From contig JANNBC010000007.1 of the NCBI GenBank assembly GCA_031385045.1, forward strand, positions 64,001-128,000: 64,000 nucleotides of DNA, written 5' to 3'. This stretch comes from a bacterium. GTDB lineage: Bacteria; Bdellovibrionota_C; UBA2361; CALJRW01. The position numbers and the translations under genes were made by a program. Below are positions 1 to 17,637 of the stretch, one piece after another. Each line of letters begins with the position of its first letter. Position 1 is the first letter of the stretch. The notes beneath the pieces are model-generated. The model was given only the letters and a program-made list of their open reading frames with translations. It did not search any database and was not told where the DNA came from.

Positions 1-309
1 AACAACATCTTTTAAATTTTGAAATGGAATTGTGTTAGAAATTAGCGTTTGAACATCTTCTTTTTTGTTACCAAGCAACTTAGTTGAAAGAAAAAGTCCT
101 GCTCCACCCAAATTAGTAGAGAAGAATACTTCCTCTTTAATGAAGTCATAATCTCCCTGCATACAACGGCCAGGAAATTGCAAACTCAAAGGAATTTTTT
201 GACCCGGAATAATGTTAATAAAATCCATCGCATCTGGCTCTTCTGCCATGCAGACAGAAAGAGCAGTAGTAAAAACTACAATAAAAACTAATAATTTCTT
301 AAGATTCAT
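1..309 (-). CDS. Secreted hypothetical protein, partial (runs off window start); third gene of the giant-protein cluster
   Basis: Not in ORF track. Hand translation from ATG at 309 (AGAGGA RBS, 7 nt after the upstream stop): MNLKKLLVFIVVFTTALSVCMAEEPDAMDF..., open to position 1; signal-peptide-like N-terminus. Confidence 0.75.
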   Translation of the reverse strand, partial: MNLKKLLVFIVVFTTALSVCMAEEPDAMDFINIIPGQKIPLSLQFPGRCMQGDYDFIKEEVFFSTNLGGAGLFLSTKLLGNKKEDVQTLISNTIPFQNLKDVV

Positions 310-316
310 CTATCCT

Positions 317-2632
317 CTATTTAGCCACACCAGCTAAGATCTGTTGAACCAAATAATCACCGGTTACAACTCCTTCGGCTAATACCATCCGGTCATCGGA
401 ACTACTACTATCAGTCTTAACTCTAAAATTAATTACAACTTGATCGTCATTGCTTGGTAATACTTCAATCTGCAGAATTGGAGTATCCCCAGTTTCGGCA
501 ACTAATAAATCTCCTACCCTTAGATTACGAGCTTGAACTAAACCTTCGGAAGTGAGCATTGGGTGAGTTTGGGTGACAAGAATCTCTCCCACCTTAGATC
601 GCAATCTAATCATTGGCGCCACTTCCGCAGATTCGATAACTAACTCGATTGGCAGATCTTGCCCAGTAACTGGATTTTTAACCAAATCACCAGCGCGAAC
701 ATTTTTAATAGCCTTAGAAGTCCCATCCGCCATCAAGATCTTAGTCTCTGGGTCAAAACATCCAGCGGTACGTTGAGTTGTACATGTTTTATTTGGTTCC
801 TTAGGCGCTCTACTTGGACTAGGCTCTGGTTTTGGATCACATGGCTTCGGATCAAAATGCCAAACTCCAGAATTATCTAAATAGACATTAGTACAATCAT
901 CTTCACAAGCACAGGCTGAAACATCAACTCCAGGACAACAAGTATGTTCTCCAGTAACACTTCCATAGTAGTTCGTAACAGGAGGATTACATCCACTACT
1001 AGGATCTATTAAAAGATCATGATCAAATCCACAACTTTTATTGCACCAAACATTTGCTAATGGCGCAATATCGTTCTCAGGGGCATCACATTTAGTAACA
1101 AGCCCCATTTTAAGTAGCTTATTGCAAACAGCGAGAAGATTATCATCAAAAACTTTTTGATTAAATTCTTGCCTGACATAAGCAAAACTTTTTGCAAGGG
1201 GAGCTGGAACTAAATCTTTTGCTTTATCAGTCCACTGAGGAGCTCCGGCTACTTCAGTATTGGCAGTACCAAAAATTGCATAGTCACAATCCTCTGTAGA
1301 ATCTAGTACCCCATCTCCACAACTTGGGCCACCATCAATTGTACAATTAATACTACACTTGGAATCTTGAATAAGTTTTCCAATGCCGTTACTATCCTCA
1401 ACATAAATAGTACTGCCATTGTTATAGCCATCATCACATGCTTCGGGACGAGCCTCTGCAATTGAAACCACATTCCCATCTTTATCTATTGGCTCAAAGT
1501 AATAATTTCTAGCAATTGGATCAATTTGACCATCACCACAGTAAGCATCATCAATGACACAAAACCCAATCCGATCGCGACTAATTTTATTATTAGCAAG
1601 ATTTGTGACAGTTACTGTATTTTCATGGTAGGTCATTGACTGCCGAAAGAAGAAGGGCTTAATAATCGTAATTGTCATTGCCGATTGTGGAGCAAGTTTA
1701 AAACTACTAGTTGCTGGATCGAAATTACATAAATTTGAGCCTGAGGAAGAACAAGTAATATTTTTGGAATTTATTTTAGCTTGGATAGCGCTAGCACTGG
1801 AAAAATATGAACTAAAGTCAGTGTCTTGAATTGTAAAATTAACTTCTGTAGAACTTGGATTAATAATATCAAAACCAATATCCATGGCATCCTGAACAAC
1901 TGTCAAAGAGTAGGTATGATCCTTGGCGGTTTGGTAATTATTTTGATATTCATCGGGAGAACTAACACAAACTGATGAGTCTACATAACTGTCATATTTA
2001 GTACCTACTGCGACTGGCATAGATATTACACTCCACCCAGAAATAGGCTCTGTAATAAGCGCATACTTATCAACCCTTAACTCTGTTCCATCTCCAATAC
2101 AAAAGCAGGCATAATCTTCCACTAAACCTGTAAAACTTGCGGGCGAGGCTTCTGCTGCGGACATGGGATATTTAACTTGAATTTTATTACAGTGAACGCC
2201 AAAGGGATTAGCATCTGCTTGAGTAAGCACCTTAGAAACCTGAATCGTCCAAGTCTCCCCAATCGACAGTATCCCATCATTTCCAGCATCACCCTTATAG
2301 ATTACAGAACTAGTAGTACTGGCCTGGAAGTTACTTGGCATTACAGGAGGAAGGATAATTTTATCATCAGAGACTAAAACCTTGCTAGCGGGAATATTAA
2401 TAAGACCATTATTGGTAATATCATAATTAAAAACAGTAGTCGCCCCAACCGCAAACTTTCCAGAATCACTAACAGTACTACAATCTGTTGTTTCGTTGAT
2501 TTGTTTTTTCTCTTGAAGATTTACACCACTACAGATCTCCTGCGCCAGAAGTTCAAGATTGCTAGAAATTAAAAGTAAGGCTGTAAATACCCCTAATAAA
2601 ATCTTAACTGGTGAATTAACTTTACTATTCAT
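317..2632 (-). CDS. Secreted Ig-like/Cys-rich repeat protein with C-terminal Hint (autoprocessing) domain
   Basis: Signal peptide; two DUF11/DUF7507-like Ig domains (FNYDITNNG, GDAGNDGILSIGETW); CGDG...CD repeats; Pro-rich linker; Hint motifs G-CF (Cys625), VTQTHP, VINF, LAEGVVT. Confidence 0.85.
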   Translation of the reverse strand: MNSKVNSPVKILLGVFTALLLISSNLELLAQEICSGVNLQEKKQINETTDCSTVSDSGKFAVGATTVFNYDITNNGLINIPASKVLVSDDKIILPPVMPSNFQASTTSSVIYKGDAGNDGILSIGETWTIQVSKVLTQADANPFGVHCNKIQVKYPMSAAEASPASFTGLVEDYACFCIGDGTELRVDKYALITEPISGWSVISMPVAVGTKYDSYVDSSVCVSSPDEYQNNYQTAKDHTYSLTVVQDAMDIGFDIINPSSTEVNFTIQDTDFSSYFSSASAIQAKINSKNITCSSSGSNLCNFDPATSSFKLAPQSAMTITIIKPFFFRQSMTYHENTVTVTNLANNKISRDRIGFCVIDDAYCGDGQIDPIARNYYFEPIDKDGNVVSIAEARPEACDDGYNNGSTIYVEDSNGIGKLIQDSKCSINCTIDGGPSCGDGVLDSTEDCDYAIFGTANTEVAGAPQWTDKAKDLVPAPLAKSFAYVRQEFNQKVFDDNLLAVCNKLLKMGLVTKCDAPENDIAPLANVWCNKSCGFDHDLLIDPSSGCNPPVTNYYGSVTGEHTCCPGVDVSACACEDDCTNVYLDNSGVWHFDPKPCDPKPEPSPSRAPKEPNKTCTTQRTAGCFDPETKILMADGTSKAIKNVRAGDLVKNPVTGQDLPIELVIESAEVAPMIRLRSKVGEILVTQTHPMLTSEGLVQARNLRVGDLLVAETGDTPILQIEVLPSNDDQVVINFRVKTDSSSSDDRMVLAEGVVTGDYLVQQILAGVAK

Positions 2633-2745
2633 ATATACAAATAACTTAACATGCCACTTTTTCCCTTACTAGAGATTAGCATAGTGACGTGCCGACACAA
2701 GGCCTTTGTTAAAAAATTCAAACCTGCTTTCGATTAAATTTTCAA

Positions 2746-5700
2746 TCATGGCTTAACCACCCTTTCAGCAGTCCAAGAGTAGCCTATTTTCTGATCTCTA
2801 AATTGATTTTGACTGTCGGCAATCATTCCTCCATTTTGAGCACTAATTAGTGCGTTGGAAACAATTAAAATATCTCCTGCTTTAACAGCAAAATTTAGAG
2901 CGATGTCACCACTTGGATCAACCTTAGACCCACCGAGTAGCGGAAATGATTTAAGCCTTGTGACAAACTCTCCACTTGGCATCAATATTTTTTCCTCAAC
3001 TATAGACATGCCGGCAATCCTGCCATTTCTTGCAAAGATTGAAAGATAGCCATTATTAGTAGGATCAACCTTTGATACCCACTTCCAAAGTCCCTGAATC
3101 GACTTCGTCTCAGCAGTAGAATTATTACTAATTTCATTTTTTAGCGGCACATTACTAGCTGATCCAATCACTTTATTTTGATCATCAGTCTTGGAGTCTT
3201 TACTAGATGTTTTTTGCAATCTCTGAATTTCTCTAAGTGCATCACCTTCATTTAGATAACTTCCAGAGTACCAATCAACAGTTCTTCCAGTAACCTCCTG
3301 ACCATCTTTGAAAAGAATAAATCCATTATTTGCGTAAAGATCTTTTACATCATCTTCAAAATCAAAGTTTACTTTGATTGATTTTAATCCATAGGTGCGA
3401 GCATCAATAACTTCACTGTCATCACTGACAGCATTAGCATTTTCATCAAACCAGAGCGAAATTGGGGTTAGCTCCTCTCCTTCTAAGTACCCATTATTAT
3501 TTTTATCTAAACTACCTAAAGCTTCATATCCATTTGCCCATGGTGCTTTAGTTTTAAGATTTCCGCCAAATGTAAAGTTACCAAACAACATCGATCCATC
3601 CTTAATTTGACCTGACTTCTTAGGATCAAATACTAAAAGCGGCCTGTTAGCATTTGCTTTCCACACAACCCATTCTTTTTCTTTAGCTGGGTTAAGAGAG
3701 AATTTTTTTGGAACAAAAAACGAAGTTAAATCTTCATTGAGAATTAAAGAAATAGGCGATAAGGCCGCAGTAATATCAACTTCTCCACAGACACCAAGCT
3801 CCTGCAGATTAACATCTTTATTACTCACTACATTGCAATCCTTATCTAGGTAGTATCGATTGATACCTTGATTAGACATCTGAGTGGTCATTGCACTATA
3901 TGCTCTTTCGAAAGCTAGATCCCAGCCCCAAGTACAAGGCCGAGTTACATCAACAGAGGTAGTACCATCTGCATTATACACCATTCTCAATTCACAATCT
4001 GGATTAATAAATGGATCTGAGATTCTGCTCCCATAGGTATAAATAAATGCCTCATAATTTGATGCCATTTCACGGTAGGTTGTAGGACCTCCTGCCCAAG
4101 CACTATCTAAAAATGCAGGAATGCTAAATCCAGTTATTTGTTGAACTAATTGATAATACTTTAGATCATCCGCTACATTACCATAAACTTGTTTTGAGAA
4201 GGTCATTCCATAGTAATCAGTTGACGATCTCACGACGTTTGGATTTAATGAATCTTGTGGAGAGTTGTGATCATACAGCTCTTTTTGATAAAGATTGTCA
4301 TTCAAACCTTCAGAGCCGATTAGTTGGCTAACACAAGAAATCCGACCTTCCATTTGTGATTTCCAAAGCTGATATTCCGGAATATCATCGCATGTTATTC
4401 CATTCTGGATAATTGAATTATTTTTAACGCAATTTTGAGCAAGGACATTCATTCCATAAAGAGAACCATTGTCTTTATAAGAAATATCACTTTGATCCGA
4501 TTGATAACCTAATTTAAATTTCCAATAATTAATTAATACACCTTGAAAGTTAATCTCTGTTAATTCACAGCTCTTAATCTGGCATCTAAATGTGCAATTC
4601 TCTGGATCTCCAGCAAAATCGCATTGTTCGCCACCATTAATAATTCCATCTCCACAGTAGGTACAAGCAGCTCCATATGTTCTGCAATTAAGTGGATCTT
4701 GTAGAGATTTATCTAGAGCGGTAGTCCCGAAAGGACCTTTATAAGCGAAGTCACAGGTCTCTGGAGCTTCAATAATGCCATTACCACATCGAGGACCACC
4801 AGTCCCAACACAAAACGAAGCGTAGTCAGAACTTTCAACGCTAGCTCCACCAACGGTAGATGTACCCCTTACAACTACATCATTACGATGCGGTCCAGCT
4901 GGTAACATAAAAGCACCAGCATTATAAATCCAAACTTCCCCTTGCTCTAAAATTCCATTGCGATTGGAATCGCCACTTGGAGAATAAGCTAGCGGATCGG
5001 ATGCTGTAAACCTATAGGAGTTACCAAGGACAGCATCAGTCAGAACAAGATTGGAGACAGCAGGAGACCCTGGCTTAAGCTTCACTTCATAACTAAAAGC
5101 TGCATATTGATCCGTTGTGATAAAATTTGTGATCAAACTATTTGTTCTATCACAGTTAGTAATATCTCTTCTCACTGGCTCCACAGTATTGGTATTGTTA
5201 GATGTAACCTTTTTAATAACTATAATATCTGATGTACTGGTATCAACAATTAAGCAAGTTGAATTACAATAAGCAGTCCCAGCTACATTGGAAGGCATTT
5301 TTGAACCATCACATTGCTCACTTCCATTAATAATACCATCACCGCAATAAGGTTCTAGTTCACACCAAGAATTACATGTAGCCCCTTTAGGGTGTGGCTG
5401 GATACCTGGAATATTATCAAAGTCTCCTCCATCACAAGCTTCCCCAGATTCTCTAATTCCATTACCACAAAAACCAATTTCTAAATCACAAGATGGTGTA
5501 CAAACTTCGTTATTAGTGGAGCTCTGAACCCCACTTGCCAAACCAAAATCTCGATTATCACAATACTCAGGACTTTCTCTAAGACCATTACCGCACCCTA
5601 ATGGTATTAATCGGCAATTTGCTGAACAGATCACTCCAGCAGCAGTACCAGCTGGAACTACCGTACCATCACACTCTTCGTAACCATTAATTATTCCATC

Positions 5701-8700
5701 TCCGCAGACTGGTGCAATCTTACAAGACCAATCACAAATTGATCCATCGGTAGTTTTTTGAACTCCTGGATCTAAACTAAAATCTAAGGCATCACAGACT
5801 TCTGTGCCTTCTCTGATACTATTACCACAATAAGTATAGTAAATATCGCAGACATCCGTGCAGGAGTCTCCAGAGGTGCTAGGTTGCACCCCTTGTAACG
5901 TAGAGAAATCATTGCCATCACAGGACTCACCATTCTCAGACTCCATCAAGCCATTACCACAGATAATTGGAACAATTTTACATTCTGAACAAGTGGAAGT
6001 AGACGGTGTGCCTACAGGTATTACTCCACCATCACATTCTTCTCCTGGCTCAATAATATTATTGCCACAGATACCTGGGCATTGACCTACCTTCTTAACA
6101 ACTGTCACGCTTGGACCAGAATCAATTACGCAAAAGGATGAATTGTCAGTCGTTGGAGCGACAACTGAATTGTCAATATTTTTGGCTGTCACATTAACAG
6201 TATTACTATGTCCACCTGTAGCCAGAGTTGTATTTAATAATTGATAAATCCAAACTTCGCCAAACTCCAAGATATTATTCCCATTATCACCACTTACATA
6301 AACTGGCGTACCAATTTTATTATCAGAAAGGACTAAATCTTTAATTGGATTAGTGTTGCCGTCTTTTAATTTAACTTCAAATCGAAAATTTACTTTTTCG
6401 GATCTGGTAATAAAGAAGTCGCTAGTACTTTGAACGTTCGCACAATTTAGTATCGAATGTTTACGTTGCAGGTAATTACTTTCAGTACTTTTAGAAACTA
6501 GTTTTCGCACCACCGCTTCGCCTTTGCCGGTAACACAAACACCAACGGAACTAGTAGCAACTACACTACTACCAGCAGAGTCAGTCCCAAGTACTGTTGC
6601 TGTATTAAGCAGAGCTCCAAGGTTACTAGCAGTAAACGAAATTGTTGGGGTGTAAGTACGAGAAGAATTTGGTAAGATTGTAAATGCTGGGGATGTTGGT
6701 AATAAATGCCCTCCCGCTCCAAAAAGCATCGTGTCATTAATCTGAGTAATTGTTACTGGTAAGCCCCCATCATTAAAAATCTCAAAGGAATAATTAACTG
6801 TAGCAGACTGATGAACAATTTTATTATTAGTAACTTGTTTAAGGATATTAGTAATATCACAATCAGCATTGCTAGTGACATTAGTGACGATATTATCATT
6901 AACAAATGTTTTACTTTCTGAAAGTGCTCGCTTAACTACCCGAATCCCAGATTTATAAGTAAGCTTACAACCGAAATTAGGAGTATTGTTAGTAATCTCA
7001 TCATTAATTGAAGTGCAACCATTAATTGAAGTATTCTCTAATTGCTTTTGAGCTAAAGTTTTACTTGCGCCAATAGTTCCAAAGTCATTTCCATCGCATT
7101 GTTCCGTAGCATGATCTACAACTCCATTTCCGCAACCAATCGTGGTAAATTCAGTTTTAACTGGTAGCGAAGATGCAAAACCATTAGAGACTCCAACTTG
7201 GGCAGTACTCGAATGAAGTCCAAGATTATCAAATGGAATAAATTTAAAATCATTGACCGAGAAAGTAACCGTTTGCCCTGGAGCTAAAGGAGCTCTTGGT
7301 AAAGAAGTCGGTGCTTTTGTTAAGTCAGGCCAGGAACTTCCACTGGCAATAATGGCATCAACTACCGAAATAAGATCTAATGGGCTAGGTCCTGTATTTT
7401 GAATACTATATTCAACTAGCACCACAGCCTGAAGTTTACCACCACTAATGATAGTTGGTTTAGGTTGATAGTCTCTTATATTAATTGTACCTTTAACTAC
7501 ATTCTCCCCAAGCAAGATCGCACTACTTGCAGCTGGGAGAGAGAAATCTCTTTGCGTACTACTAATACTAGTCCCAGAATTTTTAATAGTCTTAGTTACG
7601 CGAACAGTTTCTAAGTAATTTAAGTTACAAGTATTAGAACAGCTCTCAACATTTGCTGGCTTACCAGCAAGACCAAAGTCTAAACCATCACAGGCTTCAC
7701 TTGTTTCTTTAAATCCATCCCCGCAACCTGTAACACAATATCCAACCGTATCAGAGGCCTCAACGTTTACACCATTTAAGTCTTCCCCTTCAACCTTAGC
7801 TAGGTTTCTAACTAAACCAAGAGTGCTGGCAAGATAAGGAATAGCAGGTGACGGAGTATATGTCCTAGATTGTCCAGCCGGAATGGAAATTGCTGGATTA
7901 ATTGCAAATGAATTCAAACCAAGTTGTGCATCTGTGATGCGATCAACGGTCACTGGCAAACCTCCAGTATTTGTAATCACAAAACTATAATTCACATTGG
8001 TATTTCGAGTAACAACTTTCTTATTGGTTATTTGAGTTTGAATGTTTGTACCCTGACATTGAATTGCAGAGCTTACGACTTTGGGATCGCCAGTAATATC
8101 TTCGATTGTTCCGGTAGAGCTAGTGGCAATTTTATTTAACGTGATGAAAGCATCGTAAGTATACTTACAACTTGCATTACATCCTGTGGCTAGACCAGGA
8201 GCAGAACCCATGTTCGCACCATCGCATTGCTCGGGGACAGTTGCATTAATATCAACAAAACCATCACCACAACCTGTGACACAGACTCCAACAGAATCAC
8301 TCGCACTTACAGCAGTGTTACTTGTGTCAGTTCCATAAATCGTTCCTGAATTTCTAAGTAATCCTAAACTATTTGCAGGGTAAGGATTACTTGCAAAGGC
8401 GGGAATATATGTATAGCTTAGCCCCGGGGCAATGGAGACATTACCAGGAATGATTGCATTATTTAGTCCAAGTAGCGGATCATCAATCCTATCTAAGCGG
8501 ACAGCTCTGCCTCCGGTATTAGTAATAATAAATTGATAACTAACTGAGGAGGATTGTTTAATTACCTTACTATTAGTAATTTGAGTCTGAATATTAGACC
8601 CCTGACATTGATTAACTGTAGTCACATCAGTAGCAGCACTTGTATCTTCAAAAGTCTTACCGCTAACAATCGCCTGCTTAACTAGAGAAATCCCTGAGTT

Positions 8701-9939
8701 ATAGGTATACTGACAACTAGCATTACAACCTGTTGCTAAACCAGGAGTTGTTCCCATATTCGCACCATCACATTGTTCGGGTACTGTTGCTGCAGTGTCA
8801 ATAAATCCGTCGCCACAACCTGTAACACAAAACTCAGCTTGCTCAGTATCGCTAACGCCAAGTGGTGGAAGCGCCGCATTATCATTAATAGTGACATCAT
8901 CATGATGAAGTCCTTGAGTAAATCCACCAGGGAGTGAATGGGTAACAGTGAAACTTGCCCCAACATCTAAATCAAATAATGGTGATGAATAAGAAATTGC
9001 TGGATCGGTAATCCTTAAATTTGTTAACTTAACAGTCCCTGTATTTGTAGCTTTGAAACGAAACTCAACAGAGGAATTATTGCGGACATGCTTTTCCGTG
9101 GTAGTTGTTGTAATCGCATTACACGGAGTCGTCACCTTTGATTGCGTAGTCCAATCAACCCCTGAAGGGATACTTCGAAATTCTTTTGTAATAACTAAGC
9201 CAGGGTTTGTTAAGCGACACTGGGTATTACAACCAGCTTGATTATTTCCATTTCCATTGGCAGCAGTTCGATCACACTCCTCGCCATTATTCGGTGAGAA
9301 CACATTATCATTGCAGCGCTCAACCTTACAAGTCGGCGTACATTTTAGAAAATATTCAGCGCCAACATTTAATGATCCATAATCATTAATATCGCATTGC
9401 TCGGGAACTCCATAAGCAACATTATTAATTAAGCCATCACCGCAGTATTCAATTTTACAAGTTGCCGTATTACAGCGCCCATGACCCACATTCTGAGCTG
9501 GTGTTGGAAAATTATTTTGGAAATCAGCACCATCACATTCTTCGCTAGGATTATTAGCTACTGTATCTCCGCAATATGTACAGTTACTAGTGCAATCACC
9601 TTCAGCAGTTGAACTTCCAGGTGGATCACAAGTTTCGCCAAGAAGCTTCGTAACGATTCCATCACTACAAAATCCACAGATTAAGCATTCACATCCAGCA
9701 CATCCGCATATCGTATCATCACGAACACTAATTGGAGTCTGACCATCGGGACACATCGCATGACCCGCATAAGTTTCTGGAGATGCTTCAATAATTTGTG
9801 GGGCGGGAAGTGATAATGGAGCTTGTTGGATTGCTTGTTCTGGGTTGCTAGGCTGTGCAAATAGAATATTTTCCGGATAAAGTTGGAAAATCCCTGTTAA
9901 AACAGTGATAAAAAGAAAATATCTAAAAAATATCCACAT
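2746..9939 (-). CDS. Giant secreted surface protein (2397 aa): myxobacterial-type Cys-rich (DUF4215-like) repeats, about 7 DUF11/DUF7507-like Ig domains and a FrpC-like Ca2+-binding self-processing module
   Basis: Signal peptide; about 17 CG(D/N)G-like..E.CD..C...C repeats; repeated VxK...(Y/F)xFxxTNTG...D...N domains; near the C-terminus SPISL...LLVFD...GSMLFG...NGYEALGSLDKNNNG...LWFDENANAVSDDSEV. Confidence 0.85.
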   Translation of the reverse strand: MWIFFRYFLFITVLTGIFQLYPENILFAQPSNPEQAIQQAPLSLPAPQIIEASPETYAGHAMCPDGQTPISVRDDTICGCAGCECLICGFCSDGIVTKLLGETCDPPGSSTAEGDCTSNCTYCGDTVANNPSEECDGADFQNNFPTPAQNVGHGRCNTATCKIEYCGDGLINNVAYGVPEQCDINDYGSLNVGAEYFLKCTPTCKVERCNDNVFSPNNGEECDRTAANGNGNNQAGCNTQCRLTNPGLVITKEFRSIPSGVDWTTQSKVTTPCNAITTTTTEKHVRNNSSVEFRFKATNTGTVKLTNLRITDPAISYSSPLFDLDVGASFTVTHSLPGGFTQGLHHDDVTINDNAALPPLGVSDTEQAEFCVTGCGDGFIDTAATVPEQCDGANMGTTPGLATGCNASCQYTYNSGISLVKQAIVSGKTFEDTSAATDVTTVNQCQGSNIQTQITNSKVIKQSSSVSYQFIITNTGGRAVRLDRIDDPLLGLNNAIIPGNVSIAPGLSYTYIPAFASNPYPANSLGLLRNSGTIYGTDTSNTAVSASDSVGVCVTGCGDGFVDINATVPEQCDGANMGSAPGLATGCNASCKYTYDAFITLNKIATSSTGTIEDITGDPKVVSSAIQCQGTNIQTQITNKKVVTRNTNVNYSFVITNTGGLPVTVDRITDAQLGLNSFAINPAISIPAGQSRTYTPSPAIPYLASTLGLVRNLAKVEGEDLNGVNVEASDTVGYCVTGCGDGFKETSEACDGLDFGLAGKPANVESCSNTCNLNYLETVRVTKTIKNSGTSISSTQRDFSLPAASSAILLGENVVKGTINIRDYQPKPTIISGGKLQAVVLVEYSIQNTGPSPLDLISVVDAIIASGSSWPDLTKAPTSLPRAPLAPGQTVTFSVNDFKFIPFDNLGLHSSTAQVGVSNGFASSLPVKTEFTTIGCGNGVVDHATEQCDGNDFGTIGASKTLAQKQLENTSINGCTSINDEITNNTPNFGCKLTYKSGIRVVKRALSESKTFVNDNIVTNVTSNADCDITNILKQVTNNKIVHQSATVNYSFEIFNDGGLPVTITQINDTMLFGAGGHLLPTSPAFTILPNSSRTYTPTISFTASNLGALLNTATVLGTDSAGSSVVATSSVGVCVTGKGEAVVRKLVSKSTESNYLQRKHSILNCANVQSTSDFFITRSEKVNFRFEVKLKDGNTNPIKDLVLSDNKIGTPVYVSGDNGNNILEFGEVWIYQLLNTTLATGGHSNTVNVTAKNIDNSVVAPTTDNSSFCVIDSGPSVTVVKKVGQCPGICGNNIIEPGEECDGGVIPVGTPSTSTCSECKIVPIICGNGLMESENGESCDGNDFSTLQGVQPSTSGDSCTDVCDIYYTYCGNSIREGTEVCDALDFSLDPGVQKTTDGSICDWSCKIAPVCGDGIINGYEECDGTVVPAGTAAGVICSANCRLIPLGCGNGLRESPEYCDNRDFGLASGVQSSTNNEVCTPSCDLEIGFCGNGIRESGEACDGGDFDNIPGIQPHPKGATCNSWCELEPYCGDGIINGSEQCDGSKMPSNVAGTAYCNSTCLIVDTSTSDIIVIKKVTSNNTNTVEPVRRDITNCDRTNSLITNFITTDQYAAFSYEVKLKPGSPAVSNLVLTDAVLGNSYRFTASDPLAYSPSGDSNRNGILEQGEVWIYNAGAFMLPAGPHRNDVVVRGTSTVGGASVESSDYASFCVGTGGPRCGNGIIEAPETCDFAYKGPFGTTALDKSLQDPLNCRTYGAACTYCGDGIINGGEQCDFAGDPENCTFRCQIKSCELTEINFQGVLINYWKFKLGYQSDQSDISYKDNGSLYGMNVLAQNCVKNNSIIQNGITCDDIPEYQLWKSQMEGRISCVSQLIGSEGLNDNLYQKELYDHNSPQDSLNPNVVRSSTDYYGMTFSKQVYGNVADDLKYYQLVQQITGFSIPAFLDSAWAGGPTTYREMASNYEAFIYTYGSRISDPFINPDCELRMVYNADGTTSVDVTRPCTWGWDLAFERAYSAMTTQMSNQGINRYYLDKDCNVVSNKDVNLQELGVCGEVDITAALSPISLILNEDLTSFFVPKKFSLNPAKEKEWVVWKANANRPLLVFDPKKSGQIKDGSMLFGNFTFGGNLKTKAPWANGYEALGSLDKNNNGYLEGEELTPISLWFDENANAVSDDSEVIDARTYGLKSIKVNFDFEDDVKDLYANNGFILFKDGQEVTGRTVDWYSGSYLNEGDALREIQRLQKTSSKDSKTDDQNKVIGSASNVPLKNEISNNSTAETKSIQGLWKWVSKVDPTNNGYLSIFARNGRIAGMSIVEEKILMPSGEFVTRLKSFPLLGGSKVDPSGDIALNFAVKAGDILIVSNALISAQNGGMIADSQNQFRDQKIGYSWTAERVVKP
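5250..6075 (-). repeat. Block of seven consecutive Cys-rich repeats in A-B-C-A-B-C-A order within the giant protein
   Basis: CGNNII/CGNGLME/CGNSIRE/CGDGIIN/CGNGLRE/CGNGIRE/CGDGIIN units; boundaries approximate. Confidence 0.7.
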
Positions 9940-10414
9940 ATAGTACTACATTACCACACAATTTGAACCTAGCTAGATATTTGATTCAAACTAGCGGGGA
10001 AACGTGTCAGGATTTATCTGATTTAGAATGATTGTTTTAATTCTCTCTCCTTGATTTATACTAAGGCAAGCTATCAATAGCAGTAAGCTATTCTTCATAA
10101 CTACCTCAATATATTCAGATTATTTCCATTTGGCAGGTATGAAAATATTAGGAAAGGTTGATATGACACTAAGGAAGTGAGACAAACTAAAAATTTAACA
10201 CAGAATATTTGCCACCAAACTTCTCAACCTAAAACATTAACTGCCAGTTTTTAATTTATCAAAAGACCAATCAAAGGGATTGTTGAACGAATAAATTTAT
10301 GACAGATCTTATTAGCTACTAAGACTTTGATTCAAAAGTATGTAGGCAATTTCAAATTAAATATTTTATTTGCTCCTAAGCCACAAAAAATTTCCAAGTA
10401 ATAAAGTCTAGATT

Positions 10415-11091
10415 ATGGGTTTTACAAACTTAATCACTACTCAAGATGCCGGTGAGCAAGGAAGATCTCGGGAACCGAAACTCTTAGAAATCTTAGAACG
10501 ACTAGAGCATGATCTTGCAACTCACACAATTGGTCTCTCTAGTTGTTCCTTTCCCAGACGAATTAATCACCTCAGCGCTGCTGAAGTTCAAGAAGGGATT
10601 AGTTCCGCCAGTGGGCCAGAAGGCGAACGACTACAATAATTTATGCTCGCTTAAAGGTTTCTGCTATTAAGGAAGTACAAGGCCTAACTGTTAGCACAAT
10701 TAAACATCTAACTACTCCAGAATTAGTAGATCTACATCCGGTTGTTTCTAAAGCAATTAATTGGATTGAAAATCAACCAGCCGGAGGATCTTTTAAAAAT
10801 TACTTTAGAAGCGAACTATTGCCGAGCTTTGCCAGATATTTACATTACATGAAAAACGAGATGTCTCGAGAGGATTTTTGCTCCGACTCCTTTGTTCAGA
10901 CAATACTTCATGTTCAACAAAAATTTTTTATGATTGATTCTTTAACTGAAGGCTCAATTCCCCAACTTTCTCCAAATGAACAGCAAAAGCTACAAAAAGT
11001 TCTAATAATCTCTCTAAGTAATAATCTAAAAGACTTCCGAGAAGGATTGGAGATCGAAGCAAGATATAGTGAATTCTCACCTGCCGCATAG
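10415..11091 (+). pseudogene. Hypothetical ~225-aa gene interrupted by a single-base frameshift near 10636 (or a sequencing error)
   Basis: ORF 10415-10639 stops at CTACAATAA; the frame of ORF 10819-11091 is open from 10603; one extra A gives ...ERLQIIYARLKV... Confidence 0.5.
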
Positions 11092-11347
11092 CAGTATCTG
11101 CTAAGAACCATTCAGCTTTTTTGCACATTCAAAAATTCTTGACCAAATCGTTTAGAGACAAATTTTTGCTCTGTCCTTGGAAACATAAAGCTGAGATTTT
11201 ATTGATCAAAAAACGAATAAACAGTATAATACGTCCAGCTGAATACTGAAATTACGGCCAGCTCCGAAATGGATCAAAGCCTGATGACAATACTCAATTT
11301 CCTCTTGGTTAGTTTTTATTGTCATTCACTCTAAATTATTTCTCAAA

Positions 11348-12214
11348 ATGCTTAAATCTGAATTCCTCCGTTGCCTCCTAGAACTCTCCAAGCCAAATAT
11401 TACTAAATTAGTCTTAGTAACATCAGGTATGGGATATTGCTTAGCGAGTAATGGACTCGGGGATCTCTCCACTCTATTTTTCACACTACTTGGTACAACA
11501 CTTACCTGTGGTGGCTCAGGTGCACTCAACAATTACATCGAACGTGACTATGATTGCCTCATGAAAAGAACAGCTTGTCGCCCATTACCCAGTGGACGAA
11601 TTAAACCAGCACAAGCCTTAGGGTTTGGTTTATTACTAGTATTAACAGGAACAGTAATCCTAGTATCAATGGTAAATTTACTTTCTGGATTTTTAGCATT
11701 ACTTACGGCTTTTCTTTATGTCTTAGTTTACACACCACTAAAAAGACTAACCTGGCTTAATACATTTATTGGTGCCATCCCTGGAGCGCTTCCACCACTA
11801 GGTGGCTGGGCAGCAGCTACGGGCGAGCTTGGAGCTGGCGGCTGGATACTTTTTACTATTTTATTCATTTGGCAAATGCCTCACTTCTATTCAATCGCTT
11901 GGATGTATCGCAATGACTATGCTCAAGCTGGTTATAAAATGATTACCTTGAATGATGACAATGGACAAAAAACTTTTAGTCAGATTATTTTTTTCTCACT
12001 TTTACTGTTAGTAGTTTCCTTTCTGCCAGTCTATTTGAAAAATGTAGGTTATATTTATGTAATCTCCGCTGCCTTACTTGGAGTTTATGTACTAGCCTAT
12101 GGTGTTGCTAGCTTTTTTGCTCGCTCTCATAAGTCGGCACGAGCATTACTTAGATCAACAATTATTTATTTACCATTATTACTAACATCGCTTTTAATTG
12201 ATTCATTTATCTAA
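11348..12214 (+). CDS. cyoE: Protoheme IX farnesyltransferase (heme O synthase)
   Basis: NNYIERDYDCLMKRTACRPLPSG, YTPLKR, GAIPGALPPLGGWAA, WQMPHF motifs. Confidence 0.95.
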   Translation: MLKSEFLRCLLELSKPNITKLVLVTSGMGYCLASNGLGDLSTLFFTLLGTTLTCGGSGALNNYIERDYDCLMKRTACRPLPSGRIKPAQALGFGLLLVLTGTVILVSMVNLLSGFLALLTAFLYVLVYTPLKRLTWLNTFIGAIPGALPPLGGWAAATGELGAGGWILFTILFIWQMPHFYSIAWMYRNDYAQAGYKMITLNDDNGQKTFSQIIFFSLLLLVVSFLPVYLKNVGYIYVISAALLGVYVLAYGVASFFARSHKSARALLRSTIIYLPLLLTSLLIDSFI

Positions 12215-13200
12215 TGACTACATTTAGAAAAATCCTTGCTCAAGTTCTTCCTTTTTGTGTCCTTTTTCTAATTCTTTTTGGTGCACTAGTGACTAGCCAC
12301 GGAGCAGGTCTATCTGTGCCTGATTGGCCAACAACCTTCAATGAAAATATGTTTACCTATCCAGTGCATAAATGGACTGGGGGTATTTTTTGGGAGCATG
12401 GACACCGCTTAATCGCCAGTGGTATCGGATTTCTAACCTTAACATTAACGATTTTGATTTTACTTACTGAAAAAAGAAAGTGGCTAAAAGTACTATCATG
12501 TTTTTCTTTACTTGCAGTAATTATGCAAGGCGTCCTTGGTGGCTTAACTGTACTTTATAAACTTCCCATTGCTGTCTCAACTGCCCATGCAGTTTTAGCT
12601 CAAAGCTTTTTAGTGATGACGATTGTGATGGCCTATAGTTATTCTAAAGAACTTCAAAATAAATTATTAGCAGGCAGTCAATTAAACTCTAAGTTATTAA
12701 AGTTTAGTATATTTGCCAGCAGTGCAATCTATTTGCAATTAGTTATTGGTGCCTTGATGCGACATAGTAGTGCCGGCTTAGCTGTTCCAGACTTCCCAAA
12801 GATGGGCGGAAGTTTCATCCCAAGTATTTCAACCGAGACAGTTGCCAATATTAATTTGCAACTCAACGTTTTAGGTTATGCGCCTGTTGATAGCTTACAA
12901 GTTCTGATCCACCTGATACATCGTTTTTGGGCACTTGCTGTAATCTTTAGTGTCATCATGTTAATTGGCTATATTTTGCTTAATTCTCAACAGATTGGCA
13001 AAAAATTAACTCGCCACGGGGCATGGATTGGTTGCCTAGTAATTTTGCAATTTGCCCTGGGAATCATCACGGTTCTAAGTCATAAAGATCCATTTATTAC
13101 TAGTTTTCATGTACTGTTAGGTGCCGGGCTACTTGGACTAACTTCCCTTTTAGCCATTCGCACCTATGCTTGCAAAGGATCAGAAAAGAATTCCAATTAA
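12214..13200 (+). CDS. ctaA: Heme A synthase (CtaA/COX15 family)
   Basis: GLSVPDWP, EHGHR, QGVLGGLTV, HLIHR motifs; abuts cyoE. Confidence 0.9.
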   Translation: MTTFRKILAQVLPFCVLFLILFGALVTSHGAGLSVPDWPTTFNENMFTYPVHKWTGGIFWEHGHRLIASGIGFLTLTLTILILLTEKRKWLKVLSCFSLLAVIMQGVLGGLTVLYKLPIAVSTAHAVLAQSFLVMTIVMAYSYSKELQNKLLAGSQLNSKLLKFSIFASSAIYLQLVIGALMRHSSAGLAVPDFPKMGGSFIPSISTETVANINLQLNVLGYAPVDSLQVLIHLIHRFWALAVIFSVIMLIGYILLNSQQIGKKLTRHGAWIGCLVILQFALGIITVLSHKDPFITSFHVLLGAGLLGLTSLLAIRTYACKGSEKNSN

Positions 13201-13246
13201 ATCTTTCTCAATTAGTTTATCGGAAAGCAATTCACAAATTAATCGA

Positions 13247-13780
13247 ATGAAACAATTACTTACTCTTCTTTTAATTAGCTTACTTATGACTAATTTAAGT
13301 TTAGCTGAAAACTTGATTCCAAATTTTAAATTCTTAAATCAGAGTCAAGAGATCGTGACTCCTCAAAAGCTCAGAGGTAAATACTGGGTTTTAAATTTCT
13401 TTTTTACTAGCTGTCCAAAGATTTGCCCAATGTTAAATGGTAAAGTTTTTGCGCTAAATCAAAAATTTAAGAATCATCCTAAACTTAATTTTCTTTCTGT
13501 TAGTGTCGATCCCGAAAGAGATACTTTTCCTGCCTTGCTAAAGTATGCAGAAACATTTCAAGCAGATCTAACTCGCTGGCAATTTGCCCGCGGAACCCTT
13601 GCGCAGGTTAATCAATTAGTAGCTGACTTAAAACTAGCGTCTGGGCCAACAATTGATCAACACAATGCTCGATTAACCCTAATCGATCCCGATGGAAAAA
13701 TAATTGGATATTACTCAGGATTAGATCAAGCTGGCTTTCAAGTCTTAGATCAAAAACTAACTGAAATATTTCCTGAGTGA
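13247..13780 (+). CDS. SCO1/SenC copper chaperone
   Basis: FFFTSCPKICP (CxxxC), SVDPERDT, conserved His; ATG 13247 preferred over 13166 because it begins a signal/anchor helix. Confidence 0.9.
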   Translation: MKQLLTLLLISLLMTNLSLAENLIPNFKFLNQSQEIVTPQKLRGKYWVLNFFFTSCPKICPMLNGKVFALNQKFKNHPKLNFLSVSVDPERDTFPALLKYAETFQADLTRWQFARGTLAQVNQLVADLKLASGPTIDQHNARLTLIDPDGKIIGYYSGLDQAGFQVLDQKLTEIFPE

Positions 13781-13835
13781 TCTAATACTATTTCCCTCTG
13801 TTCCTAGGATTAACATTTAGAGTAAGATTCTTGCT

Positions 13836-15281
13836 GTGAATCAACAAAATATCAATTTTAGAATAATTAACTGGCTAATATTTCTTCTGGCATTAATTCC
13901 AACTTCTTATTGCTTTGGGCCAAGCCTGTCTAACCAGAATGCCCGCCTCCTACCTATCTATGCAGTAGTCGAAAGAGACTTTAGCCTTCCCCTCTTTAGC
14001 ATTGATAACTTTATGTTTGAGACTAATGCTTATGTTGGAACAATCGATTGGTCTAGCAACGCTGGTCATTATTACTCCAACAAATCGCCCGGAGGTATTC
14101 TTCTTGGAATTCCACCATACTACCTTGCTTATCAATTAGAATCATTTCTAGCTCTTAGTCCAGACCAACCTCAGATTGCTTATTTCAATGCTTATCTAAT
14201 TAATTTTTTTGTTTCTGTAATTCCATTTGCATTTTCTGCAATGGCTTTTTACGCCCTATTGCAGTCTTGGGGGCAAGCCAAAAAAAGAGCACTCGCGCTT
14301 ACACTAATTTATATTTTTGCCACTCCTTTCATCGCCTACAATCAAACAATGTGGGGCACTAATACCTTAACAAGCTTTTTAGTGATCAGTCTGTACTACC
14401 TAAGAAGAGAAGCTAGTAGACCTATCCTTGCGGGAATCTTTCTAGGCCTAGCCCTACAAATGGACTATTTAGCATTTATTGCGGTTGGTACAATCCTGCT
14501 ATGGTTAATTTTAGAGCAGGGCAAAAAAAGCCTTCCTACAATAATTAGCTACTCTGTAGTTGTGGGGCTAATGCTAATTTATCAATACCACTGCTTTGGT
14601 TCTATTTTTAAATCTACTAAATCTAATGGCAATCCAGCATTTGAGAATCCCGACTTGATTCTAGGATTTTTTTCAACTCCCTCTTTTTCTGTTATTTGGT
14701 CCTTACTATTTTCACTGCAGAAAGGAATGATCCTATTTATGCCAATCTTTTTGTTTACAATCATCGGGCTCTACTACTGGCTAAAAAGAAATCCTAGAGA
14801 TACTTTACTCTGGATCTCTGTAGTTAATATTATAGCTTACCTGATGTTTATATCGACCTTTAATGGTTGGCATGGAGGTGCTACAACCTTTCCCCGCTAT
14901 CTAATACCCTGTTTGATTTTTTGGCTTATTCCACTAAAAGAATGTCTAGTCCAATTTAAGTGGCCAGTATTTCTTCTAGCTACATTTAGTGCTTTCAACT
15001 CCTTAGTTTTATCGGCGATCTCTCCTATTTCACCCGATCTACACCCAAATCCACTGTATGATTTTAGCTACAAATTATTTTTCAGTGGGAAATTAGCGCC
15101 AATCAAATATCCTATTCGCCTGCAAGGCCTAGATCCCAACTTTGCTAACTACCAGAATCTATCAAGTGGAAACATCGGACAATTATTAGGACTTTCTGGA
15201 ATTACTAGCTTAATCCCCTTATTATTAATTATTGGCTTGATCGCTTTTATCCTCTATAAAAGATTGAATGTCGAAAATTAA
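13836..15281 (+). CDS. Multi-pass membrane protein, GT-C-type (PMT/ArnT-like) glycosyltransferase
   Basis: About 11 hydrophobic segments; YYSNKSPG loop and WHGGATTFPRYLIP motif. Confidence 0.6.
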   Translation: MNQQNINFRIINWLIFLLALIPTSYCFGPSLSNQNARLLPIYAVVERDFSLPLFSIDNFMFETNAYVGTIDWSSNAGHYYSNKSPGGILLGIPPYYLAYQLESFLALSPDQPQIAYFNAYLINFFVSVIPFAFSAMAFYALLQSWGQAKKRALALTLIYIFATPFIAYNQTMWGTNTLTSFLVISLYYLRREASRPILAGIFLGLALQMDYLAFIAVGTILLWLILEQGKKSLPTIISYSVVVGLMLIYQYHCFGSIFKSTKSNGNPAFENPDLILGFFSTPSFSVIWSLLFSLQKGMILFMPIFLFTIIGLYYWLKRNPRDTLLWISVVNIIAYLMFISTFNGWHGGATTFPRYLIPCLIFWLIPLKECLVQFKWPVFLLATFSAFNSLVLSAISPISPDLHPNPLYDFSYKLFFSGKLAPIKYPIRLQGLDPNFANYQNLSSGNIGQLLGLSGITSLIPLLLIIGLIAFILYKRLNVEN

Positions 15282-16644
15282 TCTTCTTACACTTCTTTGT
15301 ATCGTTGTTTTTTATTGCTTCCTACCTGGCAATATTAGTTGGCTAAATGACGAGCCAGTTCTAATTTGGAATGCACTCCACTGGAATGAGGTTAACGGCA
15401 TTGCCAAGATTGGCTTGTTTGGATCGAAGGCAATTCCTTTTGGGGCGGTACCAACGATTATCTATCAATTCCTATTATTAATTTCAGCAAATAATTTAAT
15501 TACAGTAGTGATTCTGAAAGCTATTTTTTTCGTTTTAATTATTTACTATTCTACTCTACAAATTTGTAAAACTTTAAATTTCAACCGCAACCTTGCCTTT
15601 ATCCCCTTGCTCTCTCCATTTGTTTTTCATTATTCGCGAATCCTTTGGGATAACTGTTTTATCCTGCCAATCGCCTTTTTGACTTTCTCTCTTGTTTTAG
15701 AACAAATCAATCAGCCAACTAGGCGTAAATTAATAGTTCTTTTTTTTCTATCTACAATTTTAATCCAAATTCACCTAACAAGTTTTTTGCTGATTATTCC
15801 CTGTGCGATTTTTTTACTTTTCAAACAGTCGAAATGGTTTATTGAAAATATTACGCTAACAGCACTTGCTGTCTTGGCATCCTTCCTAATTAACTATCCA
15901 TATTTTCATCTTTTAATAAATGAACTACCTAATGAAATTATCAATGATCAAAGTTCTAAATTAAACTTTGTTGCTTCCGGATTTTATTACTTTTCAGGGT
16001 GGAACTTCTTTGAGACATTTCTAAATGAAGTTCTTAGTTCATATTTAGGGTTATCTGCTATCATCGCTCGAATGATTAGCATTTTAGCTATTGGATTTTA
16101 TCTATTTTATGTATTTCTACAATTTTGTTCTAATCTACCAAACAAGATAGATCCGCTAATCCAGCTCTCACTAACTATTCTAATCGGAGCAACAATCATT
16201 GCTTATTTTGGTAATTTAGAATCATTCCCGCACTATCTTAACGCCCTCGCACCTGTGTATGCCGTGCTAATTATTTATGGAATGAATCTAATCCTCAGTT
16301 ACCATTTAGCAGGCATCGTTAATATTCTTTACGTCAGCAATATGATTGCCCTATCTCTTATCTTTCAAATTTATATCTGGCAGTTTAACGGCAACAAGTC
16401 CGCCAATTTTGGAGCAACACTTAGCAATCAAATTGCCGTTATGAAAGAAATTAAGCTTTCTGGTCAAAATCCAGAATTAATTACAACGGTAAAACAGTAC
16501 CAATATTTTCCTTATAGTTACCAAACATTACTGAAAATATTGCCCGAAACAAATCCTGAACTATCAAAAGAAAAGATTTATGTTGTTTACGCCGATTCGC
16601 AATCTGATGATGGTCGAATTATTGCTATAAAAAAGTTGCATTAA
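15268..16644 (+). CDS. Multi-pass membrane protein, GT-C-type glycosyltransferase
   Basis: N-terminal TM then WLNDEP acidic motif; SRILWD; PHYL; many TM segments. Confidence 0.6.
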   Translation: MSKINLLTLLCIVVFYCFLPGNISWLNDEPVLIWNALHWNEVNGIAKIGLFGSKAIPFGAVPTIIYQFLLLISANNLITVVILKAIFFVLIIYYSTLQICKTLNFNRNLAFIPLLSPFVFHYSRILWDNCFILPIAFLTFSLVLEQINQPTRRKLIVLFFLSTILIQIHLTSFLLIIPCAIFLLFKQSKWFIENITLTALAVLASFLINYPYFHLLINELPNEIINDQSSKLNFVASGFYYFSGWNFFETFLNEVLSSYLGLSAIIARMISILAIGFYLFYVFLQFCSNLPNKIDPLIQLSLTILIGATIIAYFGNLESFPHYLNALAPVYAVLIIYGMNLILSYHLAGIVNILYVSNMIALSLIFQIYIWQFNGNKSANFGATLSNQIAVMKEIKLSGQNPELITTVKQYQYFPYSYQTLLKILPETNPELSKEKIYVVYADSQSDDGRIIAIKKLH

Positions 16645-16696
16645 CTAGATAACTCTTATAACTGTAATTATATTAATACAAAAAACAATTTCCGAT

Positions 16697-16795
16697 GAAG
16701 TGACCCTAGGGTCGCGCGTTCTTCAATCCTTATTCTAAATGCATTGAAGCTATGAAAAACAAATATACTAAAACCTCATGGGTTTTGGTATATAT
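16697..16795. repeat. Degenerate hairpin elements related to the 44.3-44.7 kb repeat, between convergent genes
   Basis: GAAGTGACCCTAGGGTCGC (16697-16715) and palindrome ATATACTAAAACC-tcatg-GGTTTTGGTATAT (16763-16793). Confidence 0.6.
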
Positions 16796-16868
16796 TTATC
16801 GATCCTCATTTTTTTTGCAAAGAATATTAGAGAGGTTCTATGGAAGAGTCTCTAGCAATTAACTTGAT

Positions 16869-17390: not shown

Positions 17391-17637
17391 TAGAAAAAGA
17401 AGGGAATTTTCCAAGAAATATACCTTCTTACCGATACTGATTGATCACATTACCAAAAACGTTGTGCAGTTTACATATAACGCTAATGCTAAGATTAAAT
17501 CATACCTTAAGATGTATGAAAAACCATTGAGAAACATCTTAAGTTCTATTTATAATTTATTGATTAACCTTCCAAAGCTTACTTCAGAACAAGTTCGCTA
17601 ATAACAGATTATTGAAATGAATCTGTTTATTTGAAAT

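What the first reader, a model, noticed from the sequence alone, without database searches (positions are those of the whole stretch)
1..9939. Tandem secreted Ig/Cys-repeat proteins, each with a different self-processing module (possible covalent clip-and-link surface system)
Seen: two co-oriented secreted proteins built from the same parts (CGDG Cys repeats; Ig domains sharing GDxxxxGILxxGExW and a terminal FCV/FCI motif). One carries a FrpC-like Ca2+ module near its C-terminus, the other ends in a Hint domain. A third signal-peptide gene follows 7 nt later. Established: the FrpC SPM forms a reactive Asp anhydride and Hint domains form a thioester; both can ligate the upstream polypeptide to a nucleophile. 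Inference: the locus may encode adhesins that are released and/or covalently attached to each other, to the cell envelope, or to host/prey surfaces. I am not aware of this pairing being described.
Basis: partly seen in the sequence, partly recalled or inferred. Interest (0 to 1): 0.82.

Follow-up and report, generated by a model that had tools for sequence, protein, structure and literature searches.

The report
Interchangeable self-cutting tails on surface proteins
Two neighbouring genes of an uncultured bacterium encode likely exported stalk proteins that end in two different, apparently interchangeable modules predicted to cut themselves off; one is a calcium-binding fold whose usual reactive aspartate is replaced by serine, threonine or cysteine throughout its family, which would point to an undescribed self-cleavage chemistry.

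Summary
Gene A (2397 aa) has a true FrpC self-processing-module (SPM) fold (Z 15.8), but Ser2061-Pro2062 sits where FrpC has the scissile Asp-Pro, so no anhydride can form. In 151 non-redundant homologs that position is Ser 99, Thr 46, Cys 5, Asp 1; Cys arose four times and is absent from 14 control columns. That is the residue set of N-to-O/S acyl-shift autoproteolysis. An avidin-like barrel follows. Gene B ends in an intact Hint domain of the 'GD' subgroup of Burglin 2008. The conserved unit is Hint plus the third gene (C), an unnamed family: 41 of 41 Hints lie within 6 kb of C; the scan noted this pair before on other DNA. SPM next to Hint is rare (2 of 41), but a second tandem has near-identical N-termini on both, so the tails swap. 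Best reading (0.42): both tails leave the stalk as a reactive (thio)ester, then hand it to an acceptor. Nothing is tested biochemically.

The parts
2746..9939 (-). Gene A, 2397 aa: signal-like N-terminus, Cys-repeat/Ig stalk, variable region, SPM-fold domain, avidin-like barrel
9214..9762 (-). A aa 60-242: Cys-rich N-terminal cap and first CGDG repeats, homologous (about 33-36% identity) to the N-termini of Hint-ended proteins elsewhere in the same genome
6124..9213 (-). A aa 243-1272: six Ig-like (DUF7507) blocks ending in xC[VI], most followed by a CGDG repeat
5230..6078 (-). A aa 1288-1570: run of Cys-rich acidic repeats (TIGR02232 / DUF4215-like)
4804..5226 (-). A aa 1572-1712: seventh Ig-like block with GDSNRNGILEQGEVW, the block closest to B's first Ig block (26%)
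3760..3849 (-). A aa 2031-2060: conserved segment before the SPM with Cys2035 (46/46) and Cys2051 (42/46), likely a disulfide
3754..3759 (-). Ser2061-Pro2062, at the position of the FrpC Asp414-Pro415 scissile bond; predicted acyl-shift nucleophile Ser2061
3247..3756 (-). SPM-fold domain, aa 2062-2231, with two EF-hand-like loops (D2145-E2156, D2165-E2176) and conserved W2093, G2120, D2222
2749..3108 (-). C-terminal 8-stranded avidin/streptavidin-like barrel, aa 2278-2397
   Evidence: (Z 12.9, rmsd 2.8, 104 aligned)
317..2632 (-). Gene B, 771 aa: signal-like N-terminus, two Ig-like blocks, two CGDG repeats, variable Cys-rich region, Hint domain
320..760 (-). GD-type Hint domain, aa 625-771: C625, E670, T687-x-x-H690, N735, G758-D759, Q763; predicted cut at G624|C625 (758-763)
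1..309 (-). 5' part of gene C (255 aa, continues to G000:C7:63542): unnamed partner family with near-invariant C49, D53, D55, C130, C139, K142, D167, Y170, S230, P246, C253

Best explanation
A and B are likely exported stalk proteins that end in two interchangeable modules, each predicted to cut itself off by an acyl shift and to leave the stalk's new end as a reactive ester or thioester that is likely handed to an acceptor. Shown: B ends in a Hint domain with C625, T687-x-x-H690 and subgroup-specific E670 and G758-D759, without the His-Asn needed for splicing; A has an SPM fold with Ser-Pro at the FrpC cleavage site, followed by an avidin-like barrel; gene C accompanies this Hint type in every case scored. 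Inferred: (1) B forms a thioester at G624|C625, as Hedgehog does (about 0.85). (2) After calcium-driven folding, Ser2061 of A attacks the preceding carbonyl and gives an ester at L2060|S2061, i.e. intein-like chemistry in an SPM scaffold (about 0.55). (3) C serves the Hint in trans (functional link about 0.9); the barrel may do the same job for the SPM in cis. (4) The helper presents an acceptor (envelope lipid or glycan, pilus-tip protein, or a contacted cell) in the way the Hedgehog sterol-recognition region presents cholesterol, rather than letting water release the stalk (about 0.45). A and B are parallel members of one adhesin-like repertoire, not partners that link to each other.
For: Fold: Foldseek E 1.5e-6 to 6sjw; Z 15.8, rmsd 2.9, 152 aligned, with P2062 on SPM residue 1; profile E 1.2e-17. 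Nucleophile pattern: S 99, T 46, C 5, D 1 of 151 domains under 90% identity; four independent changes to Cys on the tree; 0 Cys among 387 non-S/T residues in 14 other S/T-rich columns; Cys frequency after the Pro 0.06%. Pro, W2093 and D2222 are 46/46 and G2120 45/46; they correspond to P415, W451, D579 and G477 of the FrpC cleavage pocket (PMC7078468 passages; G477 from the alignment; W451 and D579 matched by position and motif only). Ser/Thr interchange is a mark of acyl-shift autoproteolysis in GAIN domains (10.64898/2026.05.12.724683, passage). Barrel present in 123 of 123 database homologs. Hint residues: C 35/37 (S 2), T/S 37/37, H 37/37, E670 37/37, GD 37/37. Hint-C link: 41 of 41 within 6 kb, 34 directly downstream within 600 bp, 23 genomes; 9 of 13 Hint loci from an independent metagenome motif scan. 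The CxxGDxD motif of C is intact in 12 of 13 Hint-adjacent copies but in 1 of 4 SPM-adjacent copies, and that one is truncated. Swapping: G106:C195 carries SPM, SPM, Hint, C in a row with near-identical N-termini on the SPM and Hint genes; A shares its N-cap with Hint proteins of its own genome. Hedgehog division of labour: PMC7242414 passages.
Against: No biochemical or expression data. One control column (S 70, T 79, A 1) is almost as restricted to S/T, so only the five Cys cases separate catalysis from a structural hydroxyl; Ser-Pro and Thr-Pro can be favoured for cis-proline stabilisation (PMC12862571, search listing only). The FrpC mechanism twists the bond after residue 414, whereas an acyl shift needs the bond before it; the residue before S/T/C is variable (S 55, V 17, A 14, G 14 of 151). 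A Thr-Pro SPM on a Pseudomonas plasmid has no barrel, so the barrel is not obligatory for S/T-Pro. The homolog sample was drawn with a profile built from S/T-Pro members and from related genomes, so it is not independent and does not describe the whole SPM family. Six of 13 Hint-adjacent C copies also deviate at K142, D167, Y170 or S230. One GD-type Hint with a longer tail (G096:C80) has no C in the 4 kb fetched; 14 of 52 C matches have no Hint within 6 kb. No acceptor is identified.
Confidence: 0.42

Rival explanations
1. A's SPM is a non-cleaving, calcium-folded structural domain; with the barrel it forms a surface-binding or sorting tail. Only B self-cleaves.
For: Asp414 is essential in FrpC (PMC7846742 passage) and is missing; the first calcium loop is lost and D478 is mostly Asn or Ser; another S/T-only column exists; no paper on activity of Ser/Thr-Pro SPMs was found.
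Against: No Ala, Gly, Asn or Val at the site in 151 domains, but Cys four times independently; the pocket residues stay conserved; SPM and Hint genes replace each other on the same N-termini and next to C/Tad genes.
Confidence: 0.33
2. The tails cleave, but the ester is simply hydrolysed: they are removable folding or export tags, and C is a chaperone or holder of the released stalk, as FrpD holds the FrpC fragment.
For: GAIN and SEA-type acyl shifts end in hydrolysis; FrpD binds FrpC1-414 non-covalently (PMC5233953, abstract); passengers vary from Sec-type to lipoprotein to pilin-like N-termini that are already anchored; 119 of 125 C homologs have an N-terminal hydrophobic stretch and 36 a long linker, as a membrane-held chaperone would.
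Against: C follows the Hint, not any passenger type, and its motif decays when the neighbour is an SPM gene; the Hint keeps two invariant acids (E670, D759) beyond the residues needed for the thioester; C shows no fold match to FrpD among listed hits (best Z 4.3, inconclusive).
Confidence: 0.2
3. One reading: A forms an Asp anhydride, B a thioester, and the two proteins are linked to each other or to a host as a fixed two-module system.
For: Both folds are present and adjacent; the order A-B is kept in the sister genome G001 and an SPM-Hint-C tandem recurs in G106.
Against: No Asp at the cleavage site in A or its ortholog; 1 Asp in 151 homologs; SPM next to Hint in 2 of 41 loci; 195 SPM-barrel matches in 51 of 124 genomes, many in genomes without a detected Hint.
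Confidence: 0.04

Closest known systems
FrpC/ApxIVA self-processing module (PDB 6SJW/6SJX; Pfam 38 PF26745 SPM; Kuban 2020, PMC7078468)
   Same: Same fold (Z 15.8), N-terminal Pro, two EF-hand-like loops and pocket residues.
   Different: Ser (family: S/T/C) instead of the reactive Asp; first DxDxDG loop lost; no RTX repeats; signal-like N-terminus instead of type I export; followed by an avidin-like barrel.
Bacterial C-terminal Hint-like subgroup of Burglin 2008 (PMC2362128, Additional file 16: MXAN_6253, STIAU_1829, plu1731)
   Same: C-terminal Hint on exported proteins, Cys1, HP, conserved Glu, and the ending GD-x-x-x-Q without His-Asn.
   Different: Other N-termini; five of six published members carry a further LPxxW tail that B's group lacks; no partner gene is described in the passages read.
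C-type BIL domains of predatory bacteria (Bd2400; Dori-Bachash 2009, PMID 19153786; content recalled, paper not held, citation seen)
   Same: Recalled: C-terminal Hint on a secreted protein with Ig-like domains, N-terminal cleavage shown in vitro.
   Different: Sequence not available here, so identity of the subgroups was not tested; no partner gene recalled.
Hedgehog Hint plus sterol-recognition region (PMC7242414)
   Same: Non-splicing Hint after Gly|Cys; thioester formation separate from acceptor choice.
   Different: No SRR in cis; the proposed helper is a separate protein (C); block F residue is Asn; acceptor unknown.
GAIN/MAIN and SEA/SEAL autoproteolytic domains
   Same: Predicted Ser/Thr acyl-shift cleavage of a surface protein.
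   Different: Unrelated folds, no calcium trigger, products hydrolysed and held together non-covalently.

Membership tests
FrpC-type SPM (clip-and-link) | SPM fold | tested here: met
FrpC-type SPM (clip-and-link) | Asp-Pro scissile bond at the domain's N-terminus | tested here: not met
   Ser2061-Pro2062; P2062 aligns with SPM residue 1; 1 Asp in 151 homologs
FrpC-type SPM (clip-and-link) | Four EF-hand-like calcium sites, including the N-terminal DxDxDG loop | tested here: not met
   Two C-terminal loops conserved; the first loop is absent and the second altered
FrpC-type SPM (clip-and-link) | Calcium-dependent cleavage and isopeptide formation | not testable with these tools
   needs protein
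FrpC-type SPM (clip-and-link) | Part of an RTX protein exported by type I secretion | tested here: not met
   No RTX/hemolysin calcium-binding family hit in A; signal-like N-terminus
Hint superfamily | Cys/Ser at position 1 and block B T-x-x-H | tested here: met
   C625, T687, H690; Vint E 6e-6, PT-HINT E 1.4e-4, 2lwy E 1.5e-5
Intein or A-type BIL (splicing) | C-terminal His-Asn followed by a nucleophile or extein | tested here: not met
   G758-D759-Y760, then 11 residues to the stop
Burglin 2008 bacterial C-terminal Hint subgroup | C-terminal Hint ending GD-x-x-x-Q on an exported protein | tested here: met
   Compared by eye with Additional file 16
Burglin 2008 bacterial C-terminal Hint subgroup | Shared upstream region with two conserved Cys | tested here: inconclusive
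   Many members here have a CxxC...R motif before the Hint, but no alignment to the published upstream regions was made
C-type BIL (Bd2400) | Sequence motifs and upstream PPS-1 domain | not testable with these tools
   paper not held; recalled only
Hedgehog Hog domain | Sterol-recognition region after the Hint | tested here: not met
   Only 12 residues follow D759
FrpD-like anchor (for gene C) | FrpD fold; outer-membrane lipoprotein | tested here: inconclusive
   No match above Z 4.3; lipobox-like motif in 5 of 125 homologs
Tad pilus tip locus | Adjacent TadE/TadG-like genes | tested here: not met
   None seen beside the three G000 loci (by ORF inspection); present at 14 of 29 related loci

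The most novel reading that the evidence does not exclude
The FrpC calcium-triggered fold has been rewired in a large family (195 matches in 51 of 124 genomes of this phylum) from Asp-anhydride chemistry to Ser/Thr/Cys acyl-shift chemistry, and together with the GD-Hint plus partner C it forms a Hedgehog-like bacterial system in which two unrelated folds activate the C-terminus of surface or pilus-tip proteins and a ligand-binding helper (avidin-like barrel in cis, C in trans) attaches them covalently to a lipid or to a contacted cell.
Probability: 0.22. Interest if true: 0.9.

Novelty: new variant of a known kind. Interest (0 to 1): 0.7.

Why it matters
All SPMs described in the papers read here work through Asp-Pro and are used as protein-ligation tools (NeissLock). 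A natural Ser/Thr/Cys version would be a new autoprocessing reaction and a calcium-switched source of C-terminal esters or thioesters. A Hint domain with a dedicated partner would be a bacterial counterpart of Hedgehog's acceptor selection and would address what non-splicing bacterial Hint domains are for. Both claims can be tested with small recombinant fragments from a non-pathogenic environmental organism.

Tried and rejected
Single-sequence PDB search with the SPM found nothing; only the profile and fold searches did. Predicted complex of B's Hint with C: no answer, score 0.00, neither for nor against. C: no Pfam or NCBIfam family, no Atlas hit, no plasmid match, no fold match above Z 4.3 despite pLDDT 92, no profile similarity to the SPM-barrel. 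The search for related loci could not use alignments A4 and A2, and the single-protein scan of all genomes gave 1 locus, so the range outside this phylum is poorly sampled. PF26745 is not in the local Pfam copy. No RNA holder listed. Promoter and terminator scans were at chance level; no Rfam match in 1-20000. Dropped before the 41-Hint count: 8 of 49 weaker matches, 7 ending in His-Asn (no C beside them) and 1 GD-type with a longer tail. Considered and rejected: frameshift or assembly artefact; a fixed SPM+Hint operon; a toxin-immunity pair (no toxin domain in A or B; C is one conserved family whatever the passenger). Literature searches that found no report of Ser/Thr/Cys-Pro SPMs, of the barrel, or of the partner; subscription papers are mostly not searched.
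Full report
What is there. The window's first 10 kb hold three minus-strand genes: A (2746-9939, 2397 aa), B (317-2632, 771 aa) and C, which starts 7 nt after B and runs off the window (255 aa in G000:C7:63542-64309). Contigs of three public runs agree with the sequence; one spans it whole but may be its source. All three proteins begin with a hydrophobic signal-like stretch (by eye). A is a stalk of seven Ig-like blocks (DUF7507, E 2.9e-24) and 12 CG[DN]G repeats (TIGR02232, E 1.8e-10); B has two Ig-like blocks and two such repeats. Database labels on close homologs read Bdellovibrionota, Oligoflexia or Deltaproteobacteria bacterium; holders of this DNA are sediment metagenomes.

The tail of A. 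An AlphaFold2 model of the last 382 residues (22 sequences, mean pLDDT 82) has two domains. The first matches the FrpC self-processing module (Foldseek E 1.5e-6; Z 15.8, rmsd 2.9, 152 aligned; profile E 1.2e-17; Atlas clusters named SPM, PF26745). The superposition starts with P2062 on SPM residue 1, that is P415, so S2061 stands at D414. In FrpC this Asp forms the anhydride (PMC7078468, passages) and D414A abolishes cleavage and coupling (PMC7846742, passages).

The Ser is not decay. The SPM-barrel cassette has 195 matches in 51 of 124 genomes of the phylum. In 46 full-length copies from fetched loci the site holds S 32, T 13, D 1; in 123 database homologs S 76, T 42, C 5, all with the barrel (the best 120 of 275 hits plus 3). 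Pooled and reduced below 90% identity (151 of 168) it is S 99, T 46, C 5, D 1. Cys arose four times on the tree, while 14 other S/T-rich columns hold no Cys among 387 other residues and Cys makes up 0.06% of the cassette after the Pro. In four of the five Cys proteins the two upstream cysteines are visible in the 50 residues printed, and none has a Cys after the site. Ser/Thr/Cys is the residue set of acyl-shift autoproteolysis (established for inteins and Hedgehog; Ser/Thr interchange in GAIN domains, 10.64898/2026.05.12.724683, passage). The Pro, W2093 and D2222 are invariant and G2120 nearly so; they correspond to the FrpC cleavage pocket, and D579A abolishes FrpC processing. I infer that S2061 attacks the L2060 carbonyl, one bond upstream of the FrpC cut. 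Against this: one control column is nearly as restricted to S/T, the residue before the site varies, Ser/Thr-Pro may be favoured for structural reasons (PMC12862571, listing only), the sample was drawn with a profile of S/T-Pro members, and a Thr-Pro SPM on a Pseudomonas plasmid lacks the barrel.

The tail of B. B ends in a Hint domain with G624|C625, T687-x-x-H690, and no His-Asn. Across 37 aligned homologs C1 is 35 (Ser 2), T/S 37, H 37, and three further residues are invariant: E670, G758, D759. The ending GD-x-x-x-Q matches the bacterial subgroup in Burglin 2008 (PMC2362128, passages and Additional file 16). It may be the C-type BIL of Dori-Bachash 2009 (recalled; citation seen; not held). 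N-terminal thioester formation follows from established Hint chemistry; splicing does not.

The real partner is gene C. G000 has four such Hint proteins at three loci, each ending with a C homolog. In 124 genomes, 41 of 41 strong Hint matches (23 genomes) lie within 6 kb of a C gene, 34 directly upstream of it within 600 bp. Eight weaker matches were left out: seven end in His-Asn and have no C, one is GD-type with a longer tail and no C in 4 kb. A motif scan of metagenomes gave 18 loci, 13 with a Hint, 9 of those with C; three others end within 570 bp and one is a partial duplicate; several loci duplicate each other or the genomes. These genomes are kin, so no statistic is given. C is a family of 548 clusters at 50% identity without a Pfam name, with a confident beta-sandwich model (pLDDT 92) and no clear fold match. 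It keeps two likely disulfides and D53, D55, K142, D167, Y170, S230. The scan had already noted Hint plus partner at another locus of this genome and in another genome (e1-9585656, e1-7029000); I reached it before reading those notes, and the second gave me the Burglin reference.

The two tails swap. SPM next to Hint is rare: 2 of 41 Hint loci, judged from the 150 of 195 listed SPM places and from profile scans of fetched loci. The sister genome G001 keeps the order A-B, with A in two ORFs and B cut by a contig end, so its Hint is not seen. But G106:C195, in another order, carries SPM, SPM, Hint, C in a row, and its SPM and Hint genes have near-identical signal and Pro/Thr stalk regions. A itself shares its N-cap and repeats with the Hint proteins of its genome (33-40%). 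Of 14 C matches without a Hint, four lie beside an SPM-barrel gene; in these the CxxGDxD motif is broken in three and the fourth is truncated, whereas it is intact in 12 of 13 Hint-adjacent copies examined, six of which differ at other conserved positions. So C's site is kept for the Hint and is not needed by the SPM-barrel. At 14 of 29 wider loci that I chose, TadE or TadG-like genes lie within 3.5 kb, beside Hint and SPM genes alike (150 of 163 ORFs scanned, first 300 residues; 13 ORFs of an orphan locus and distant housekeeping genes left out); some Hint and SPM proteins have pilin-like N-termini. None was seen at the three G000 loci.

How it most likely works. A and B are exported stalks with variable tips. 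Each tail folds outside the cytoplasm, converts the bond before its first residue to a thioester (B) or ester (A, calcium-triggered) and leaves. In Hedgehog the Hint makes the thioester and a separate region selects cholesterol (PMC7242414, passages). Here C in trans, and perhaps the barrel in cis, would play that part and transfer the stalk to an envelope molecule, a pilus tip or a contacted cell. Steps shown: folds, residues, gene linkage, swapping. Steps inferred: export, both cleavages, the helper role, ligation. Rivals: A's SPM is inert (0.33); cleavage ends in hydrolysis and C is a holder like FrpD (PMC5233953, abstract) (0.20); the anhydride model (0.04).

What is known and what is not. 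Both folds are known, the Hint subgroup is in print and its partner was noted by this scan. Eight literature searches found no report of Ser/Thr/Cys-Pro SPMs, of the SPM-barrel cassette or of its exchange with Hint tails; the scan's notes held none either. Further papers seen: PMC12538545 (first quarter of the text), PMC5874633, PMC11271337, PMC2797640, PMC10556640 (passages). Supplements of the SPM papers, which may show homolog alignments with non-Asp sites, were not read, and Osicka 2004 and Dori-Bachash 2009 were not seen. Verdict: new variant of a known kind, interest 0.70.

Noticed in passing
G000:C53:29424-32753, C55:71802-73505, C43:19929-22160, C53:26162-29350: Four more Cys-repeat proteins with signal-like N-termini end in a basic, apparently helical C-terminal region instead of Hint or SPM; possibly a third type of tail. 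The C53 gene lies beside type IV minor-pilin-like genes, the C55 gene follows a C homolog.
   Followed up: no
L010, L011, L012, L016, L017, L083 (G037, G054, G006, G030): Flp/TadE pilin-like proteins fused to a conventional His-Asn-ending Hint domain, without gene C; a second kind of pilin-Hint fusion in this phylum.
   Followed up: partly
L098:6132-6821 (G001:C9): A 229-aa protein that is only a signal peptide, a Gly/Ser/Gln linker and a GD-Hint, with almost no passenger.
   Followed up: no
L072 and L076 (G042:C242, G076:C238): Two GD-Hints begin with Ser instead of Cys yet keep the other residues and an adjacent C gene.
   Followed up: no
L161:3-758 (G096:C80): GD-Hint with an LPxxWxxDY tail like most of Burglin's members and no C nearby; the tail may replace C in cis (one case).
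   Followed up: partly
L156:4758-6563 (G101:C1): The single SPM-barrel copy with Asp-Pro among 151; a natural control for the chemistry.
   Followed up: no
window 9940-11347: 1.4 kb without a clear gene upstream of A; no Rfam match, only short ORFs.
   Followed up: partly
window 13836-19375: Membrane glycosyltransferase-like genes (weak PMT_2) and a pilin-like gene at 16869-17414 with an N-methylation motif near the locus; could modify surface proteins.
   Followed up: no
L237:1171-3888 (NZ_CP047266.1): A repeat-rich Pseudomonas plasmid protein with a Thr-Pro SPM that keeps the first calcium loop and has no barrel, near a TolC gene: S/T-Pro SPMs occur outside this phylum.
   Followed up: partly
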